Part shown: positions 5,182-45,100 of the stretch, in pieces | Layout of the letters: each line of letters starts with the position of its first letter | Position numbering within the stretch: the first letter of the stretch is position 1 | Origin: a virus | Lineage: Duplodnaviria; Caudoviricetes | DNA: 64,000 bases | IMG/VR virus record: IMGVR_UViG_3300031949_001696 | Direction: 5' to 3' (one strand) | The notes under the pieces: model-generated | What the model was told of the DNA's origin: nothing | The model's input: only the letters and a program-made list of their open reading frames with translations | Databases searched by the model: none | Made by a program: the position numbers and the translations under genes

Positions 5182-5739
5182 ATGGAGGCACCCGCGGCTA
5201 ATCCCATGATGCAGATCGCGGCGCAGTGTCGCTCCGAGCCGGTCGTCTTCGACGACCTTCGCCCCGAGCTCTGCCCTGCACTTGAGCAGGTTATTCTCGA
5301 TCGGATGCAGAACGATCGTGGTCGCAAGATCGGATCGCTCAACGTCGGCGGCTGGAAATCGGGTGAAGATTTCTTCGCGTGGCCCAACGTCGCGGTGCAG
5401 GAGCTGCGGCAATCGATCTTCGAGCTGGTTGGCGCGAGGTCGCCGATTGCGTGGGCCATGGTGAACCGTGCGGGCAGCCATCACCCTCGGCACCAGCACC
5501 GAGTCGCGATCCTCTCGGGCGTGTACTACGTGACGGCCGGCAGTGCCGACGCGATCACGCCGACCGTCTTCGAGTGCCCGTGTGACGGGCGCCCAGTGCG
5601 TGGACGCGATAGCTACGAGCTGGAGGTCGAGCCTCACCCTGGGCGTCTCGTGCTCTGCCGCGGCGAGACGTGGCACCGGCTTCCCGCCTATTTCGGTGAG
5701 CTGCCGCGGATCACGATCGCGTTCGACGTGCGACGCTGA
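5182..5739 (+). CDS. 2OG-Fe(II) oxygenase-like protein, paralogue 2 (tandem duplicate)
   Basis: Highly similar to 4583-5116, same motifs. Confidence 0.7.
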   Translation: MEAPAANPMMQIAAQCRSEPVVFDDLRPELCPALEQVILDRMQNDRGRKIGSLNVGGWKSGEDFFAWPNVAVQELRQSIFELVGARSPIAWAMVNRAGSHHPRHQHRVAILSGVYYVTAGSADAITPTVFECPCDGRPVRGRDSYELEVEPHPGRLVLCRGETWHRLPAYFGELPRITIAFDVRR

Positions 5740-5940
5740 AGAGGCGATCAGTCCCATTTCCCGATGAGTTGATTGATGCGCGCGTGGACCCAGCGCGCGC
5801 CGGCATCACCGCTCGGCAGAAAACCCGTTCGCTACGAGCCGAAGGTTCAAACGCATCTCGGCATCTCGGCATCTCGGCGTCTCGGCAATTGTGGCCGGCT
5901 CGGGATCGAGGCTGCGGTAACACGTAGGATCGCCGCTTTT

Positions 5941-25100: not shown

Positions 25101-25173
25101 GCTATCGTAGCTCAGCTGGCAGAGCACCTGACTTGTAATCAGGGGGTCCCGAGTTCGATTCTCGGTGGTAGCT
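25101..25173 (+). tRNA. tRNA-Thr(TGT)
   Basis: cctga-CTTGTAA-tcagg. Confidence 0.9.
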
Positions 25174-25183
25174 CGATGATCAT

Positions 25184-26303: not shown

Positions 26304-26375
26304 GGGCCTCTAGTTCAACAGTAGAACGCTCGGCCTATTACCGAGATGTTGAGGGTGCAAATCCTTCGGGGCCTA
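26304..26375 (+). tRNA. tRNA-Ile(TAT)
   Basis: ctcgg-CCTATTA-ccgag; atypical C33 and U37. Confidence 0.65.
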
Positions 26376-26382
26376 CGATCAC

Positions 26383-31091: not shown

Positions 31092-32750
31092 ATGTCGATC
31101 GACTATCTGATGGACGCCGTTGCGTCGCCGACGCAGCGAGAGAAGGCCGACCCTCGGCAGGTCATGAACAATGCAGGAGGCTACACGTTCGTCGTCGACG
31201 ACTGGGCACGCCTGCGCCGCTTCCTGGTGCTCGGCGCCGAGGGCGGCACGTACTATGCGTCCGAGAAGAAGCTCGCGCGCGAGAACGCCGCGTGCGTCGA
31301 GCGGCTGATCCAGCTCGATGGTCCACGCCTCGTTCGCGAGGTGGCCGAGCTGTCGGAGAGCGGTCGCGCGCCCAAGAACGATCCGGCGATCCTCGCGCTC
31401 GCGCTCGCCGCCAAGCTCGGCGACCTGCCGACCAAGCGGGCCGCGTACGCGGCGCTGCCGCGCGTCTGCCGCATCGGCACGCACCTCTACCACTTCGCCG
31501 CGTTCACGAGCGCAATCGCGGGTGGCGGCTGGGGCGCCGGCATGCGCCGCGCAATCGGCGACTGGTTCAACGCCCGATCGGTCGACGACACCGCGCACCA
31601 GGTCGTGAAGTACCAGTCGCGCGACGGCTGGTCGGCCAAGGACGTCCTTTGCCTCGCGCGTCCGAACCCGAAGAAGGCGTACCGCTTCGACAAGGAAGCA
31701 GGGCGTGTCGTCGCGGCCGACGACTTCGCCGCGCGCGACGCGCTCTACCGCTGGGTGACGTACGGCGTCGAGGGCCTCGACGTCGATCAGCGCGCGAAGC
31801 TGCCGGCGATCGTCGATGCGTTCGAGCAGCTCAAGGGCCTGACCGACGGCAAGAAGGTCGTCGCGCTGATCCGCGAGCACTCGCTGCCGCGCGAGGCCGT
31901 GCCGACGCAGCACCTGACGCTTCCCGAGGTATGGGAGGCGCTCCTGCCGCACATGGGCCTGTCCGCTCTCGTCCGTAACCTCGCGACGATGACGCGCGTC
32001 GGCGTGATCGCGCCGCTCGGCGCGCACGTGCCGGCGATCTGCGCGCGCCTCACGGATGCTGCGCAGCTCTCCAAGGCGCGCGTGCATCCGATCCAGATGC
32101 TGTCGGCGCTCAAGACGTATCAGCAGGGGCACGGCGCGCGCGGCAAGTCGACGTGGACTGCGGTCCAGCCGATCGTCGACGCGCTCGACGCAGGTTTCTA
32201 CGCGGCGTTCGCGACGGTCGAGCCGACGAACCAGGCGACGCTGATCGCGCTCGATGTCTCGGCGTCGATGTGCTCGGGCACGATCGCGGGCTGCCCTGGC
32301 CTGTCGCCGCGCGTGGCGTCGGCGGCGATGGCGCTCGTGACGGCGGCGCGCGAGCCGAACCACCACATCATGGGGTTCTCGGACACGCTCGTCGACGTGC
32401 CGATCTCGCCGAAGATGCGTCTCGATCAGGCGATCGCTGCGATCGATCGCGTTCGGATGGGCGGCACGGACTGTGCGCTGCCGATGGTCTGGGCCGAGAA
32501 GTCGAAGGCGAAGGTCGACGCGATCGCGATCTACACCGACAACGAGACGTGGGCCGGCCCGGGGCATCCGCACAAGGCGCTCCAGAGCTACCGCAAGAGC
32601 TCGGGGCGGCCGACCAAGCTCGCGGTTGTCGGCTTGACCGCGACGCAGTTCACGATCGCCGATCCGACGGACGCAGGCATGATGGACTTCGTCGGGTTCG
32701 ACGCGGCGGCGCCGCAACTCATGGCGGACTTCTTTCGCGAGGGAGCATGA
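31092..32750 (+). CDS. rsr: Ro60/TROVE-domain RNA-binding protein (Rsr) with vWA domain
   Basis: NNAGGY, RFLVLG.EGGTYY, KYQSRDGWS, ALVRNL, MIDAS DVSASM, GGTDC, TDNET, GFD; AGGAG RBS. Confidence 0.95.
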   Translation: MSIDYLMDAVASPTQREKADPRQVMNNAGGYTFVVDDWARLRRFLVLGAEGGTYYASEKKLARENAACVERLIQLDGPRLVREVAELSESGRAPKNDPAILALALAAKLGDLPTKRAAYAALPRVCRIGTHLYHFAAFTSAIAGGGWGAGMRRAIGDWFNARSVDDTAHQVVKYQSRDGWSAKDVLCLARPNPKKAYRFDKEAGRVVAADDFAARDALYRWVTYGVEGLDVDQRAKLPAIVDAFEQLKGLTDGKKVVALIREHSLPREAVPTQHLTLPEVWEALLPHMGLSALVRNLATMTRVGVIAPLGAHVPAICARLTDAAQLSKARVHPIQMLSALKTYQQGHGARGKSTWTAVQPIVDALDAGFYAAFATVEPTNQATLIALDVSASMCSGTIAGCPGLSPRVASAAMALVTAAREPNHHIMGFSDTLVDVPISPKMRLDQAIAAIDRVRMGGTDCALPMVWAEKSKAKVDAIAIYTDNETWAGPGHPHKALQSYRKSSGRPTKLAVVGLTATQFTIADPTDAGMMDFVGFDAAAPQLMADFFREGA

Positions 32751-32753
32751 CCC

Positions 32754-33617
32754 GTGGGGTATTTGCACATTGCCAACCTCTACAAGGAGCCTGATCTCCT
32801 TTTGTTCCGACGCTGCTACGCGCTCGAGAAGGTGCACGGCACTTCCGCTCATATCGCCTGGGGCCCCGCTGGAGTCACGTTCTTCTCCGGTGGTGAGTCT
32901 CACACGCGCTTCGTCGGGCTGTTCGACGCTGCCGCGCTGAAAGATCAGTTCAGCGCGCTGGGACACGCCGAGGTGACGATCTACGGTGAGGCGTACGGCG
33001 GCAGTCAGCAGGGCATGAGGCTCGTCTACGGCGCGGAGCTGCGCTTCATCGCGTTCGACGTGCAGGTGGGCTCGTGCTGGCTGTCTGTGAAGGATGCCGA
33101 GCAGGTATGCCAGGCGCTCGACATCGAGTTCGTGCCTTACGAAGAGATCGCGACCGAGCTGGTCGAGATCGATCGCGTGCGCGATCAGCCGTCAGCGGTG
33201 GCCGTGCGTCGCGGCACGGGAGCCGACAAGCCGCGCGAGGGAGTGGTCCTGCGCCCGCTCGTCGAGGTGACCAAGAACAACGGATCGCGCATCATTGCCA
33301 AGCACAAGGCCGACACGTTCGCCGAGCGTGCCACGCCACCCAAGGTGGTGGATGTGGCCAAGCTCGAAGTGCTGGCGGCGGCAGAGGCGATCGCGCAGGA
33401 GTGGGTGACGCCGATGCGCCTGACTCACGTGCTCGATAAGCTCGGCACGACCGACATCAGCGAGATGTCCAAGATCATTCACGCCATGGTCGAGGACGTG
33501 TTCCGCGAGGCCAAGGGCGAGATCGTCGAATCGAAGGATGCCCGGACAGCGATCGGCAAACGCACGGCGCGGCTATTCAAGGAGCGTCTTGACCAGGTGA
33601 TGCGCACCGCGGGCTGA
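32754..33617 (+). CDS. ATP-dependent RNA ligase, Rnl2-like
   Basis: Nucleotidyltransferase motifs EKVHG, YGE, FIAFDV, EGVV, AKHK. Confidence 0.8.
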   Translation: MGYLHIANLYKEPDLLLFRRCYALEKVHGTSAHIAWGPAGVTFFSGGESHTRFVGLFDAAALKDQFSALGHAEVTIYGEAYGGSQQGMRLVYGAELRFIAFDVQVGSCWLSVKDAEQVCQALDIEFVPYEEIATELVEIDRVRDQPSAVAVRRGTGADKPREGVVLRPLVEVTKNNGSRIIAKHKADTFAERATPPKVVDVAKLEVLAAAEAIAQEWVTPMRLTHVLDKLGTTDISEMSKIIHAMVEDVFREAKGEIVESKDARTAIGKRTARLFKERLDQVMRTAG

Positions 33618-33640: not shown

Positions 33641-33726
33641 TGCGCGTCGGGTTGTCCGCTGCGCGCGTTATCGTCGGCCTATTAAGCCGAAAGGAAGCCG
33701 CTCTCGCGACCTCTTCATCCGTCGCA
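33641..33726 (+). ncRNA. Y-RNA-like unit 1
   Basis: GTCGGGTTGT...CTCTTCATCCG terminal motif; internal tcggc-CTATTAA-gccga hairpin. Confidence 0.6.
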
Positions 33727-33763
33727 CCTTGACGTCACGATCGTCTTCGGGCAGGTTCTCTTC

Positions 33764-33825
33764 GTCGGGTTGTAGCGGCACTGTTCTCATCAACAGAAAA
33801 GCGGTGCCGCAGCTCTTCATCCGAC
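33764..33825 (+). ncRNA. Y-RNA-like unit 2
   Basis: GTCGGGTTGT..CTCTTCATCCGAC; gcggcactg/cggtgccgc stem. Confidence 0.65.
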
Positions 33826-33874
33826 ACCATTTCCGCCGTTGACGGTTCGTGCGTCTTCAGGCATCTTCTTCTTC

Positions 33875-33933
33875 GTCGGGTTGTAGTGGCAGTGTTCTCT
33901 GGTTGAAACCGCTGCCACGCCTCTTCATCCGAC
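33875..33933 (+). ncRNA. Y-RNA-like unit 3
   Basis: Same termini; gtggcagt/gctgccac stem. Confidence 0.65.
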
Positions 33934-33982
33934 TCTCTATTCGCCCTGGCGTTCCTTCGCGGATGTCAGGAGTTTCATTTTT

Positions 33983-34044
33983 GCCGGGTTGTCGCCGGAG
34001 TGTTCTCTCGAACAGAACCACGCTCCAGCACCCCTTCATCCGGC
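33983..34044 (+). ncRNA. Y-RNA-like unit 4
   Basis: GCCGGGTTGT..CTTCATCCGGC (covarying ends); gttct-CTCGAAC-agaac hairpin. Confidence 0.65.
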
Positions 34045-34075
34045 ACCATTCCCAGCAGCACTGTTCTCTCGTTTT

Positions 34076-34153
34076 GCCGGGTTGTCGCGAGATCGTTACC
34101 TGACTTGTAATCAGGCCCTCACGGGCTTCGCGGTCTTGCACTCTTCATCCGGC
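34076..34153 (+). ncRNA. Y-RNA-like unit 5 carrying a tRNA-Thr(TGT) anticodon arm
   Basis: Same termini; cctga-CTTGTAA-tcagg at 34099-34115. Confidence 0.7.
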
Positions 34154-34162
34154 GTCATTTTC

Positions 34163-34285
34163 GGCGGGTTGTAGATCCAGGGTTACCACGTAGGACATCG
34201 AGGTCGCGGGTTCGACTCCCGTCGTATCGGCGCGAGCCGATGAAGTGGAATGGTGTCATGTGGGGTCCTTGGCTGTCACGTCGTC
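34163..34285 (+). ncRNA. YrlA-type Y RNA with a tRNA-like T-arm module (unit 6)
   Basis: GGCGGGTTGT start; long stem (ccaggg/ccttgg, ccacgt/atgtgg, gacatc/ggtgtc) enclosing gcggg-TTCGACT-cccgt and a closed atcggc-gcga-gccgat hairpin. Confidence 0.7.
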
Positions 34286-34608
34286 ACTTTTCGCGCCGTC
34301 GACAGCAGGTACGACGGATAGCCCTTCTTCTTGTAGTACGCGTCGAAGGCGCGATCCTGCTCTTCCGCGGTCATGCCTGACTTGAGGCCGACGTCGGCGG
34401 CGAGCTTACGCGCCTCGGCCAAGCGGCGATCGCCTGCCTTGATCGATGGGCGAACAAGCGCGAGGTAGCCGACACCCAGAGCAGCGGCGCCGATCGCGAT
34501 CTTTACCCACGGTATGCCGGATGACCGCGGCGCTGATTGCAGCGCTGCTTGTGCCGGCTTGTTGACGCCGTTGCCGACGTACGATCGACCATATTCGCCG
34601 CGACCCAT
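34276..34608 (-). CDS. Small membrane-anchored protein
   Basis: MGRGEYGRSYVG N-terminus, one hydrophobic helix. Confidence 0.55.
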   Translation of the reverse strand: MGRGEYGRSYVGNGVNKPAQAALQSAPRSSGIPWVKIAIGAAALGVGYLALVRPSIKAGDRRLAEARKLAADVGLKSGMTAEEQDRAFDAYYKKKGYPSYLLSTARKVTT

Positions 34609-45003: not shown

Positions 45004-45089
45004 GGAAGGTGAGGTGGGGGCTGGTCCCCACGCCCGTCTCGAAAACGGGATGCCCCGAAAGGGGCCGGGTTCAATTCCTACTCCTTCCG
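45004..45089 (+). tRNA. tRNA-Ser(CGA)
   Basis: cccgt-CTCGAAA-acggg, long variable arm, G73. Confidence 0.8.
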
Positions 45090-45100
45090 CTGCGAAAAAT

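What the first reader, a model, noticed from the sequence alone, without database searches (positions are those of the whole stretch)
33674..34115. The Y-RNA-like units display tRNA anticodon stem-loops (possible anticodon-nuclease decoys)
Seen: unit 5 contains ACCTGACTTGTAATCAGG (34098-34115), identical over 18 nt to the anticodon arm of tRNA-Thr(TGT) at 25126-25143. Unit 1 has tcggc-CTATTAA-gccga, sharing TCGGCCTATTA with the tRNA-Ile(TAT) arm. Unit 4 has gttct-CTCGAAC-agaac (the tRNA-Ser(CGA) loop is CTCGAAA). Weaker cases: unit 2 can expose CTCAT (Met-like) and unit 3 TTGAAA (Phe-like). Known: anti-phage and toxin ribonucleases (PrrC, RloC, VapC, colicin D/E5, PARIS AriB) cut anticodon loops. 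Inference: Ro60-held anticodon mimics act as decoys or baits, possibly resealed by the adjacent ligase, with payloads captured from tRNA genes.
Basis: partly seen in the sequence, partly recalled or inferred. Interest (0 to 1): 0.9.

Follow-up and report, generated by a model that had tools for sequence, protein, structure and literature searches.

The report
Phage Y RNAs displaying anticodon arms
A giant soil phage encodes, after its Ro60 RNA-binding protein, a row of small Y-type RNAs, three of which end in a hairpin built like a tRNA anticodon arm (one is letter-identical to a common bacterial threonine-tRNA arm); related phages keep this design, so it is probably a bait for proteins that read tRNA anticodons.

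Summary
Window 33646-34245 holds six Y-RNA-like units after Ro60 and an Rnl2-type RNA ligase.

- **Unit 5:** it carries an 18-nt copy of the tRNA-Thr(UGU) anticodon arm (none expected by chance).
- **Units 1 and 4:** each ends in a 5-bp stem with a 7-nt loop, CUAUUAA and CUCGAAC.
- **Units 2 and 3:** the "Met-like" and "Phe-like" readings fail. These units are YrlB-like long hairpins, and relatives keep no such hairpin.

I compared 14 related phage arrays (Ro60 69-84% identical).
- The Thr arm is identical in seven phages. One more has CUCAUAA, and one variant has CUCGUAA.
- The phages' own tRNA-Thr(UGU) arms mostly differ from it, so this is not a recent copy of the neighbouring gene.
- The same 18-mer is a widespread bacterial tRNA-Thr(UGU) arm.
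- The unit-1 hairpin matches the bacterial tRNA-Arg(UCU) arm except at anticodon positions 34 and 35, which vary between phages.
- Two arrays that lack the unit-5 class carry CUUGUA on the unit-4 scaffold instead.

The anticodon-arm display is therefore real and under selection. The decoy function is untested. The ligase sits beside Ro60 in only 4 of 15 loci.

I rate it a new variant of Y RNAs. Earlier notes of this scan (e1-5378724) describe a similar design in another phage family; I did not check them.

The parts
31092..32750 (+). Ro60 (TROVE + vWA) protein gene
   Evidence: Pfam vWA_Ro60 at 1.7e-60 and TROVE at 1.6e-42. Homologues at 69-84% identity lie on jumbo-phage-size contigs, and the window's own contig is 332,853 nt.
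32754..33617 (+). Rnl2-type ATP-dependent RNA ligase gene
   Evidence: Pfam RNA_ligase PF09414 at 2.9e-12, with a weak T4_Rnl2_C match. It sits next to Ro60 also in L046, L247 and L257, but in none of the other 11 related loci.
33646..33723 (+). Unit 1: Y-RNA-like unit with an apical anticodon-arm-like hairpin at 33674-33690 (UCGGC / CUAUUAA / GCCGA)
   Evidence: The fold is. Homologues in L251, L252 and L253 keep a 5-bp stem (95% of cells paired, one pair changed on both sides) and a 7-nt loop: CUCUUAA, CUCAUUA and CUCCUAA. In bacteria this stem with a CU..UAA loop is the tRNA-Arg(UCU) arm in 108 of 120 hits.
33729..33757 (+). Promoter-like motif before unit 2: TTGACG, 17 nt, CAGGTT
   Evidence: TTGAC(G/T), about 17 nt, then (C/G)AT-type hexamer is conserved upstream of the first two small units in most related arrays. 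The sigma-70 consensus scan did not call it, so this is an inference.
33764..33825 (+). Unit 2: YrlB-like long hairpin with a GUUCUC...GAAA apex and no conserved anticodon-like hairpin
   Evidence: Fold z-score -4.3. The apical sequence differs in length and letters among homologues.
33839..33867 (+). Promoter-like motif before unit 3: TTGACG, 17 nt, CATCTT
   Evidence: Conserved in the related arrays. This is an inference.
33875..33933 (+). Unit 3: YrlB-like long hairpin with a conserved apex GUUCUCUGGUUGAA, which is not anticodon-like
   Evidence: Fold z-score -4.0. The apical 14-mer is the same in the window, L046, L247, L248, L250 and L255.
33983..34044 (+). Unit 4: Y-RNA-like unit whose apex can form GUUCU / CUCGAAC / AGAAC (34002-34018)
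   Evidence: L247 is identical at the apex, and L251 has a 9-nt loop. L253 has CUUGUAA and L255 has CUUGUAC on the same scaffold. The GUUCU strand is part of the family-wide GUUCUC motif.
34076..34153 (+). Unit 5: Y-RNA-like unit with a three-way junction. It joins a 10-bp middle stem, an anticodon arm (34099-34115, plus A at 34098) and a small hairpin (34116-34125).
   Evidence: The 18-nt identity to tRNA-Thr(TGT) is. Over nine homologues, 99.5% of cells are paired and five pairs show changes on both sides. The arm is identical in seven phages. L046 has CUCAUAA, and the L249 variant has CUCGUAA. Further metagenome contigs show no change in the loop.
34163..34245 (+). Unit 6: decayed YrlA-type tRNA mimic. 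The basal 5' strand, the T arm (34206-34222) and the GCGA-closed acceptor-like hairpin (34226-34241) remain. The D arm and the basal 3' strand are lost.
   Evidence: It aligns with the complete 126-134-nt units of relatives up to the acceptor hairpin and then diverges. The L251 homologue scores 38.6 bits against Rfam YrlA RF02553 (E = 8e-7 for that stretch), below the gathering score of 69. The window unit itself gave no YrlA match.
25101..25174 (+). tRNA-Thr(TGT) gene whose anticodon arm (25126-25143) is identical to the unit-5 arm
   Evidence: ARAGORN and Rfam both call it.

Best explanation
The tract is an array of Ro60-partner (Y-type) small RNA genes.

**Architecture**
- Every unit has the same basal helix: 5' NNCGGGUUGU pairs with CUUCAUCCGNN 3'. 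This is the presumed Ro60 docking site.
- Next comes a variable middle stem, then a conserved GUU(A/C)YC motif, then an apical module.
- In three unit classes (window units 1, 4 and 5) the apical module copies or imitates a tRNA anticodon arm, with 5 bp and a 7-nt loop C-U-N-N-(U/A)-A-(A/C).
- In unit 5 the arm is the exact arm of a common bacterial tRNA-Thr(UGU).

**Proposed mechanism**
- I think these RNAs hold an isolated anticodon arm on Ro60 as a bait for a protein that recognises tRNA anticodon arms.
- The most likely action is as a competitive inhibitor or sink for a host tRNA-targeting defence or toxin nuclease during infection.
- The phage's own roughly 30 tRNA genes, whose arms differ, would meanwhile keep translation going.

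**Shown**
- The architecture, its conservation, the covariation of the helices, the identity to real tRNA arms, and the pattern of variation.

**Inferred**
- Transcription, Ro60 binding, and above all the identity of the protein that is baited.

My confidence that these are Y-type RNAs displaying anticodon-arm mimics is about 0.85. The figure in the confidence field is for the decoy/competitor mechanism.
For: **Y-RNA context**
- The units lie directly after Ro60 on the same strand.
- The basal helix covaries: GUCGG/CCGAC against GCCGG/CCGGC and GCUGG/CCAGC.
- The last unit of related arrays is a full YrlA-type tRNA mimic, with a sub-threshold but significant Rfam YrlA match.

**Real tRNA arm**
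- Unit 5 shares 18 of 18 letters with tRNA-Thr(UGU).
- The same 18-mer is the tRNA-Thr(UGU) arm in more than 119 bacterial genomes, and 119 of the 134 occurrences counted follow the D-arm end TAGAGC.
- The unit-1 stem and flanking loop letters equal the bacterial tRNA-Arg(UCU) arm in 108 of 120 hits.

**Selection**
- The unit-5 arm is invariant in seven phages and in extra metagenome contigs. Its middle stem changes freely while keeping its pairs.
- The phages' own tRNA-Thr(UGU) arms are diverse.
- Differences between phages fall on positions 34 and 35. Unit-1 loops carry AU, CU, CC or CA there. Unit-5 loops carry UG, CA or CG.
- The two arrays without a unit-5 class carry CUUGUA on the unit-4 scaffold. 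No array has two UGU loops.

**Link to tRNA damage and repair**
- The locus sits inside the tRNA gene island.
- An Rnl2-type ligase follows Ro60 in 4 of 15 loci, and RtcB lies nearby in L250.
- In Salmonella, Ro60 and Y RNAs are in the operon induced by cleaved tRNAs. Its authors proposed YrlA as a competitive inhibitor of an anticodon nuclease (PMC7790460).
Against: - There is no evidence of transcription, Ro60 binding or cleavage.
- I know of no anticodon nuclease specific for tRNA-Thr (own knowledge).
- Many anticodon nucleases need modified bases, which an isolated arm may lack.
- The unit-1 triplet in the window (AUU) matches no normal bacterial tRNA. Its variation at positions 34 and 35 could be relaxed constraint rather than tuning.
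- The unit-4 hairpin re-uses the family-wide GUUCUC motif and has no compensatory support.
- Lower variability in the unit-5 arm than in the rest of the unit is only a trend: 2 of 17 variable columns against 15 of 40, Fisher p = 0.06.
- More distant Ro60 phage arrays have small units without anticodon-like hairpins, so the display is specific to this clade.
- The ligase is not consistently linked.
Confidence: 0.4

Rival explanations
1. Tether rather than decoy. As with Yrn1 and PNPase, the anticodon arm would recruit a tRNA-handling enzyme to Ro60. Candidates are threonyl-tRNA synthetase, the t6A37 machinery (which acts on tRNAs with U36-A37), or another modification or processing enzyme. The result would be a specialised Ro60 particle for tRNA quality control or turnover during infection.
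For: - Y RNAs are known tethers (Chen 2014, PMC4201824; phiLo Ro60-Yrl-PNPase, PMC12135203).
- 15 of the 18 displayed loops have U36, and all but one of those also have A37-A38. That is the signature of tRNAs decoding ANN codons.
- ThrRS is known to bind isolated anticodon-arm mimics in the thrS operator (own knowledge).
- The unit-5 stem letters are invariant, which fits sequence-specific protein recognition.
Against: - There is no evidence for any partner.
- The unit-4 loop CUCGAAC lacks U36.
- It is unclear why a phage would need several different arms on one scaffold for quality control.
Confidence: 0.25
2. Cleave-and-reseal substrate. Host anticodon nucleases would cut the arms, and the phage Rnl2-type ligase would rejoin them while they are held on Ro60, so that the bait is recycled.
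For: - The ligase follows Ro60 by 3 nt in the window. It is adjacent in L046 (92% identical), L247 and L257, and all four of these arrays contain a unit-5 class RNA.
- Jumbo phages carry several RNA ligases thought to repair nuclease damage (PMC7824862).
Against: - 11 of 15 related loci have no ligase within 6 kb. Five of them still have the unit-5 class.
- No end-healing kinase/phosphatase was seen beside it in the neighbours I scanned.
- Rnl2-type enzymes prefer nicks in duplex RNA (own knowledge).
Confidence: 0.1
3. Structural cap only. The 7-nt U-turn loops on 5-bp stems would simply be stable hairpin ends inherited from an old tRNA-derived ancestor of these Y RNAs, and nothing would read them as tRNA arms. 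The identity to tRNA-Thr would reflect that ancestry, or occasional gene conversion with phage tRNA genes.
For: - Bacterial Y RNAs are thought to derive from tRNAs (PMC4201824).
- The window, L046 and L253 do have tRNA-Thr(UGU) genes with the same or nearly the same arm.
- Variation at positions 34 and 35 is what neutral drift in a U-turn loop would give.
Against: - Ten stem letters and five loop letters are invariant in seven phages whose Ro60 proteins differ by about 20%, while the neighbouring middle stem changes.
- CUUGUA reappears on a different scaffold exactly where the unit-5 class is missing.
- The arm equals the most common bacterial tRNA-Thr(UGU) arm, not the arms of most of the phages' own genes.
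Confidence: 0.2
4. Chance resemblance, or mis-read coding or terminator sequence.
For: ORFs of 60-94 aa can be drawn across the tract. One terminator-like hairpin lies at 33945-33970.
Against: - Neither the 18-mer nor the 11-mer found a chance match in shuffles.
- The repeated unit architecture has covarying helices.
- It is conserved in 14 other phage loci while the putative ORFs are not.
Confidence: 0.02

Closest known systems
YrlA, the tRNA-like Y RNA of bacteria and mycobacteriophages (Rfam RF02553; Chen et al. 2014, PMC4201824)
   Same: It is encoded beside Ro60 on the same strand. Its 5' and 3' ends form the Ro60-binding helix, and its interior imitates tRNA. The last unit of the related arrays is of this type.
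   Different: YrlA imitates the T arm, D arm and acceptor stem, and the Ro60 helix takes the place of the anticodon stem, so it has no anticodon loop. Units 1, 4 and 5 do the opposite: they present only an anticodon arm. Their 5' motif is GGGUUGU rather than GNCGAAN0-1G.
[quoted passage not shown]
   Same: Units 2 and 3 are long hairpins with a pyrimidine-rich GUUCUC apex. They sit beside a YrlA-type RNA, and several Y RNAs occur per locus.
   Different: There are three to six units per array, some with their own promoter-like motif. Three classes replace the simple loop with an anticodon-arm hairpin.
Deinococcus radiodurans Yrn1, modelled with an 'anticodon arm' (PMC4201824, Fig. 2E text)
   Same: It is a Y RNA with a 5-bp stem-loop in the position of a tRNA anticodon arm.
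   Different: The Yrn1 loop has 6 nt and was not reported to match a particular tRNA. Here the loops have 7 nt, and one arm is letter-identical to tRNA-Thr(UGU).
Proposal that YrlA competitively inhibits an SOS-induced anticodon nuclease in Salmonella (Hughes et al. 2020, PMC7790460)
   Same: The functional idea is the same: a Ro60-bound tRNA mimic competes with tRNAs for a nuclease, in a locus tied to RNA ligases.
   Different: That proposal concerns a mimic without an anticodon loop, in a bacterium. Here a phage carries true anticodon-arm copies. Neither has been tested.
Phage answers to anticodon nucleases: the T4 Pnkp + Rnl1 repair of tRNA-Lys cut by PrrC, and phage tRNAs that replace or evade cleaved host tRNAs (own knowledge; T4 reference listed in PMC7790460)
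   Same: A phage-encoded RNA ligase sits next to a large tRNA gene set, so the likely context is a conflict over host tRNA anticodon loops.
   Different: Those systems repair or replace functional tRNAs. The units here cannot decode and are not tRNAs (no ARAGORN or Rfam tRNA call).
thrS operator of E. coli, an mRNA mimic of the tRNA-Thr anticodon arm bound by ThrRS (own knowledge)
   Same: An isolated stem-loop that imitates the tRNA-Thr anticodon arm is enough for specific protein recognition.
   Different: That is a cis-acting mRNA leader for autoregulation, not a Ro60-scaffolded small RNA of a phage.

Membership tests
Bacterial/phage Y RNAs (Ro60 partner RNAs) | Encoded within a few kb of the Ro60 gene, on the same strand | tested here: met
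   The units start 29 nt after the ligase, which follows Ro60 by 3 nt, all on the + strand. Arrays lie after Ro60 on its strand in 13 of the 14 related loci, from about 15 nt to 2.6 kb downstream; L254's contig ends 457 nt after Ro60 and shows no unit.
Bacterial/phage Y RNAs (Ro60 partner RNAs) | 5' and 3' ends pair into a helix that carries the conserved 5'-strand motif (GNCGAAN0-1G, like the vertebrate GGUCCGA) | tested here: inconclusive
   The helix is present and covaries. The motif here is GGGUUGU(A/C)G. More distant arrays have GGGUCGAAG, which fits the published motif. The window's version is therefore a diverged form.
Bacterial/phage Y RNAs (Ro60 partner RNAs) | Bound by Ro60 in vivo or in vitro | not testable with these tools
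   This needs RNA immunoprecipitation or a gel-shift assay.
Bacterial/phage Y RNAs (Ro60 partner RNAs) | Expressed as a discrete small RNA | not testable with these tools
   No RNA run is listed for this DNA. Only promoter-like motifs and U-rich spacers are seen.
YrlA (Rfam RF02553) | Reaches the family's covariance-model gathering score | tested here: not met
   Window unit 6 gave no YrlA hit at E <= 10. The complete L251 homologue scores 38.6 bits against a gathering score of 69, with E = 8e-7 on the 821-nt stretch. Six related loci gave none at gathering.
YrlA (Rfam RF02553) | Order of parts: Ro60 helix, then T arm, loop-closed acceptor stem, D arm, then back to the helix | tested here: met
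   This is met for the last unit of 10 related arrays. An eleventh, in L257, is a shorter 107-nt unit without the D-arm motif. Window unit 6 keeps only the first half. Units 1-5 do not have this layout.
tRNA | Cloverleaf recognised by ARAGORN or Rfam RF00005 | tested here: not met
   No tRNA is called inside 33646-34160. Units 1, 4 and 5 contain only an anticodon-arm-like hairpin.
tRNA anticodon arm (as a motif) | 5-bp stem, 7-nt loop, pyrimidine 32, U33, purine 37 | tested here: met
   Unit 5 class: 8 of 9, and the L249 variant has an interrupted 4-bp stem. Unit 1 class: L252 has U37, and L253's stem pairs at only 4 of 5 positions. Unit 4 class: 4 of 5 under the GUUCU/NGAAC pairing, and L251 has a 9-nt loop.

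The most novel reading that the evidence does not exclude
These phages run a modular 'scaffold plus cargo' system. A constant Ro60-docking handle would carry exchangeable anticodon arms that copy the host's own tRNAs: Thr-UGU almost always, and Arg/Lys/Met-type arms variably. Together with the YrlA-type unit, which supplies the other half of the tRNA shape, the array would disarm or report host nucleases that attack tRNA anticodon loops. The displayed anticodons would then record which host tRNAs are under attack in that phage's host range.
Probability: 0.25. Interest if true: 0.85.

Novelty: new variant of a known kind. Interest (0 to 1): 0.66.

Why it matters
What bacterial and phage Y RNAs do is still largely unknown, and so is why they imitate tRNA. 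YrlA copies the elbow and acceptor end of tRNA but lacks an anticodon. The RNAs here supply exactly the missing part, on the same Ro60 handle and in the same array.

One of them is letter-identical to a real and widespread tRNA arm. That gives a concrete, testable ligand: find what binds the tRNA-Thr(UGU) arm when it is held on Ro60. It also links Ro60 particles directly to the conflict between phages and hosts over tRNA anticodon loops.

If the bait reading holds, the arrays would be a new kind of phage counter-defence. They would also be a natural read-out of which tRNAs host defences target.

Tried and rejected
- **Cultured phages:** blastn of the array against 50,697 phage records found no match. 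Ro60 by tblastn reaches at most 46% identity there, so no cultured relative is available.
- **IMG/VR:** Ro60 relatives reach at most 50% identity. Their loci lack this unit type under my pattern scans.
- **Handle pattern in IMG/VR:** scanning for GGGTTGT...CTTCATCCG gave 119 single, evidently chance hits. I rejected it as uninformative.
- **Unit-5 pattern in IMG/VR:** it hit only an ordinary tRNA in an AT-rich phage.
- **Unit-5 pattern in 185,579 species genomes:** no hit.
- **Whole genome:** none is held for this window.
- **RNA runs:** no RNA holder is listed, so I have no expression data. Contigs laid on the tract came from DNA runs only.
- **Rfam:** no meaningful family matches the window tract.
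- **Promoters:** the sigma-70 consensus scan found none. The conserved TTGACG-N17-CATCTT motif is my own reading.
- **Arm versus rest of unit 5:** the Fisher test on variability was not significant, p = 0.06-0.13.
- **Ro60 tree:** it is star-like inside the clade. I cannot say whether CUUGUA on the unit-4 scaffold in L253 and L255 arose once or twice.
- **tRNA-Ile(TAT) link for unit 1:** I considered it and rejected it, because it is out of register and is not kept in relatives.
- **Unit 4's CGAA as the published Y-RNA 'CGAA' motif:** I considered it and rejected it. That motif lies in the 5' strand of the basal helix.
- **Reviews:** two by the Wolin group (PMC10870794, PMC6047535) are not held.
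Full report
**What is at the coordinates**

The window comes from a 332,853-nt contig of a tRNA-rich giant phage (31 tRNA genes in the window). The gene at 31092-32750 encodes Ro60, with TROVE and Ro60-vWA domains. Three bases later, 32754-33617 encodes an RNA ligase of the Rnl2 family. The next 650 bases are non-coding and repetitive.

Six units begin with N-N-C-GGGUUGU. Five of them end with CUUCAUCC-G-N-N. The two ends pair, and they covary between units: GUCGG/CCGAC against GCCGG/CCGGC. Units 2-5 fold well below shuffled controls, with z-scores of -2.6 to -4.3.

**Checking the observation**

- **Unit 5.** The 18-mer ACCTGACTTGTAATCAGG occurs twice in the window, in unit 5 (34098-34115) and in the anticodon arm of tRNA-Thr(TGT). 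No match was found in shuffles.
- **Unit 1.** It shares the 11-mer TCGGCCTATTA with tRNA-Ile(TAT). In that tRNA the stem is CUCGG/CCGAG, so the shared letters are one base out of register. Two of the eleven letters differ in every relative. I treat this particular link as coincidental.
- **Unit 4.** It can form GUUCU/CUCGAAC/AGAAC (34002-34018). A tRNA-Ser(CGA)-like gene near 45005-45092, which neither ARAGORN nor Rfam calls, does have the loop CTCGAAA.
- **Units 2 and 3.** I could not support the weaker claims, as the relatives below show.

**Relatives**

Cultured phages and IMG/VR hold only distant Ro60 homologues, at 50% identity or less. A metagenome scan and the large protein collection gave about 38 Ro60 proteins at 69-84% identity. 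I fetched 14 of their loci: L046, L047 and L246-L257. All lie in tRNA gene islands of 20-35 tRNA genes per locus. All but L254, whose contig ends soon after Ro60, carry an array of the same units after Ro60 on its strand, from about 15 nt to 2.6 kb downstream.

The units fall into five classes.

1. **Units 2 and 3 type (25 units).** These are long hairpins with an apex GUUCUC...GAAAC.
   - The middle of the apex varies in length and letters.
   - The hairpin that RNAfold draws in window unit 2 is absent from the L046, L246, L247 and L248 homologues.
   - Unit 3 has its own conserved apex, GUUCUCUGGUUGAA, which is not anticodon-like.
2. **Unit 5 type (9 units).** This is a three-way junction of a 10-bp middle stem, the anticodon arm and a small hairpin.
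   - Over the nine sequences, 99.5% of cells are paired and five pairs change on both sides. No slid control comes close.
   - The arm is letter-identical in the window, L246, L247, L248, L250, L251 and L257.
   - L046 differs only at the two letters that correspond to anticodon positions 34 and 35, giving CUCAUAA.
   - L249 has a different, interrupted stem with the loop CUCGUAA.
   - Contigs from four further metagenomes cover unit 5 with up to ten differences, and none lies in the loop.
3. **Unit 1 type (4 units).** A 5-bp stem (95% of cells paired, one pair changed on both sides) carries a 7-nt loop. The loops are CUAUUAA, CUCUUAA, CUCCUAA and CUCAUUA.
4. **Unit 4 type (5 units).** The GUUCU/NGAAC stem carries CUCGAAC (window, L247), a 9-nt version (L251), CUUGUAA (L253) and CUUGUAC (L255).
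5. **YrlA type.**
   - Ten arrays end in a complete 123-134-nt tRNA mimic: T arm, loop-closed acceptor stem, then D arm. L257 has a shorter 107-nt unit without the D-arm motif.
   - The L251 copy scores 38.6 bits against Rfam YrlA (E = 8e-7 on the stretch searched), below the gathering score of 69.
   - Window unit 6 is a decayed copy that has lost the D arm and the closing strand.

**What the arms resemble**

The unit-5 18-mer is a very common natural tRNA-Thr(UGU) arm. In 119 of the 134 occurrences counted there, the 18-mer follows the D-arm end TAGAGC. Hits include Myxococcota, Oxalobacteraceae, Neisseriaceae and Brevibacillus.

The phages' own tRNA-Thr(UGU) genes behave differently. Only the window and L046 have this arm, and L253 differs by one letter. 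Eleven others share just 10-13 of the 18 letters with it, and together carry nine different arm sequences. The Y-unit arm is more constant across these phages than their own tRNA-Thr(UGU) arms. This fits a copy of a fixed outside molecule, such as the host tRNA, or an arm under sequence-specific selection.

For unit 1, I fixed the stem and the flanking loop letters (TCGGCCT..TAAGCCGA) and scanned the same genomes. The scan returned tRNA arms, of which 108 of 120 were tRNA-Arg(UCU). The phage units carry AU, CU, CC or CA at the two free positions, and never UC.

**Pattern of variation**

Across 18 hairpins in three scaffold classes the loop reads C32, U33, N, N, U/A36, A37 (one U), A/C38. Nearly all differences between phages lie at positions 34 and 35.

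Nine of the 14 arrays display exactly one UGU loop, and none displays two. The two arrays that lack the unit-5 class (L253, L255) carry CUUGUA on the unit-4 scaffold. The three arrays that have both classes carry CUCGAAC, or its 9-nt form, on unit 4.

The Ro60 tree is unresolved inside the clade, so I cannot count how many independent events this represents. Lower variability in the arm than in the rest of unit 5 is only a trend, p = 0.06. More distant Ro60 phage arrays have small units with the same GUU(A/C)YC motif but no anticodon-like hairpin. The display is therefore a feature of this clade and not of all phage Y RNAs.

**How it most likely works**

The handle, the position beside Ro60 and the YrlA-type companion make these Y-type RNAs (confidence about 0.85). 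Y RNAs are known to bind Ro60 through the terminal helix and to present their other end to a second protein (PMC4201824; PMC12135203).

An isolated, exact tRNA-Thr(UGU) arm on that handle is best read as a bait for something that recognises anticodon arms. I favour a competitor or sink for a host tRNA-cutting nuclease (0.4), for four reasons.
- The locus sits in the phage's tRNA island.
- Ro60 and Y-RNA loci are tied to RNA-repair ligases and, in Salmonella, to a response to cut tRNAs. In that system YrlA has already been proposed as a competitive inhibitor of an anticodon nuclease (PMC7790460; PMC7824862).
- The arm copies a common bacterial tRNA rather than most of the phages' own.
- The phages' own arms are diverse.

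The main rival is tethering of a tRNA enzyme such as ThrRS or the t6A machinery (0.25). The U36-A37-A38 signature of most loops favours it. The cleave-and-reseal idea is weakened because the ligase accompanies Ro60 in only four of fifteen loci. A purely structural cap (0.2) does not explain why the stem letters are invariant, or why CUUGUA reappears on a second scaffold. None of the functional readings has been tested.

**Novelty**

Y RNAs that mimic tRNA are known, and a decoy role has been suggested for them. I found no paper that describes Y RNAs carrying true anticodon-arm copies, or arrays of such units in phages. The nearest is the 6-nt-loop 'anticodon arm' modelled in Deinococcus Yrn1.

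Earlier AI notes of this scan report a similar design, with Lys(UUU) and Asn(GUU) arms on a different handle, in a freshwater phage family (e1-5378724). I did not check that claim, and it is not independent evidence. I class the finding as a new variant of a known kind.

Noticed in passing
window 34163-34300: The terminal YrlA-type unit is decayed in this phage. It aligns with complete units of relatives through the T arm and the GCGA-closed acceptor hairpin, then loses the D arm and the closing CUUCAUCC strand. L046 keeps only an orphan closing strand (about L046:9288-9303), and L248 has none.
   Followed up: partly
window 33729-33757 and 33839-33867; same position in L046, L246-L253, L255, L257: A conserved promoter-like motif, TTGAC(G/T), about 17 nt, then CATCTT or GGCAT, ends about 7 nt before the first two small units. 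Later units are separated only by 8-15-nt U-rich spacers. This suggests a mix of separate promoters and co-transcription or termination at each unit.
   Followed up: partly
all units, e.g. window 33666-33671, 33784-33789, 34094-34099, 34182-34187: A motif GUU(A/C)YC follows the middle stem in every unit class, including the YrlA type, and in distant Ro60 phage arrays (L006, L047, L051, L053, L067). In unit 5 its last two or three letters are also the first letters of the anticodon arm. I do not know its role.
   Followed up: no
window about 45005-45092 (+): A tRNA-Ser(CGA)-like gene has the arm CCCGU/CUCGAAA/ACGGG, a long variable arm and a T arm. Neither ARAGORN nor Rfam calls it, and its D region looks unusual.
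   Followed up: partly
window 26304-26376: tRNA-Ile(TAT) has the anticodon loop CCUAUUA, with C at position 33 and U at 37.
   Followed up: no
L006 5657-6130 (= L058): In a more distant Ro60 phage, the Y-RNA-like units (handle GGGUCGNNGU ... CUUAYCC) are interleaved with tRNA genes. One tRNA-like gene at about 5723-5842 carries an insertion of roughly 50 nt after the anticodon region.
   Followed up: no
L001 2100-2460, L003 2560-2930, L005 2550-2930: A conserved, apparently structured non-coding element of about 350 nt lies 1-1.5 kb upstream of Ro60 in a group of 400-kb-class phages. It begins GTGACTGGG.TGTGTGCTGACACATAAAGG. I did not identify it.
   Followed up: no
L257 8585-9604: An IS1595-family transposase gene sits between the Ro60-ligase pair and the Y-RNA array in one relative. 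The array is displaced by about 1.7 kb but remains intact.
   Followed up: no
window 33945-33970: A terminator-like hairpin followed by a T run lies between units 3 and 4. One relative's contig (run X4) joins 33917 to 34072 with 13 other letters in between, so it lacks unit 4, as does L046.
   Followed up: partly
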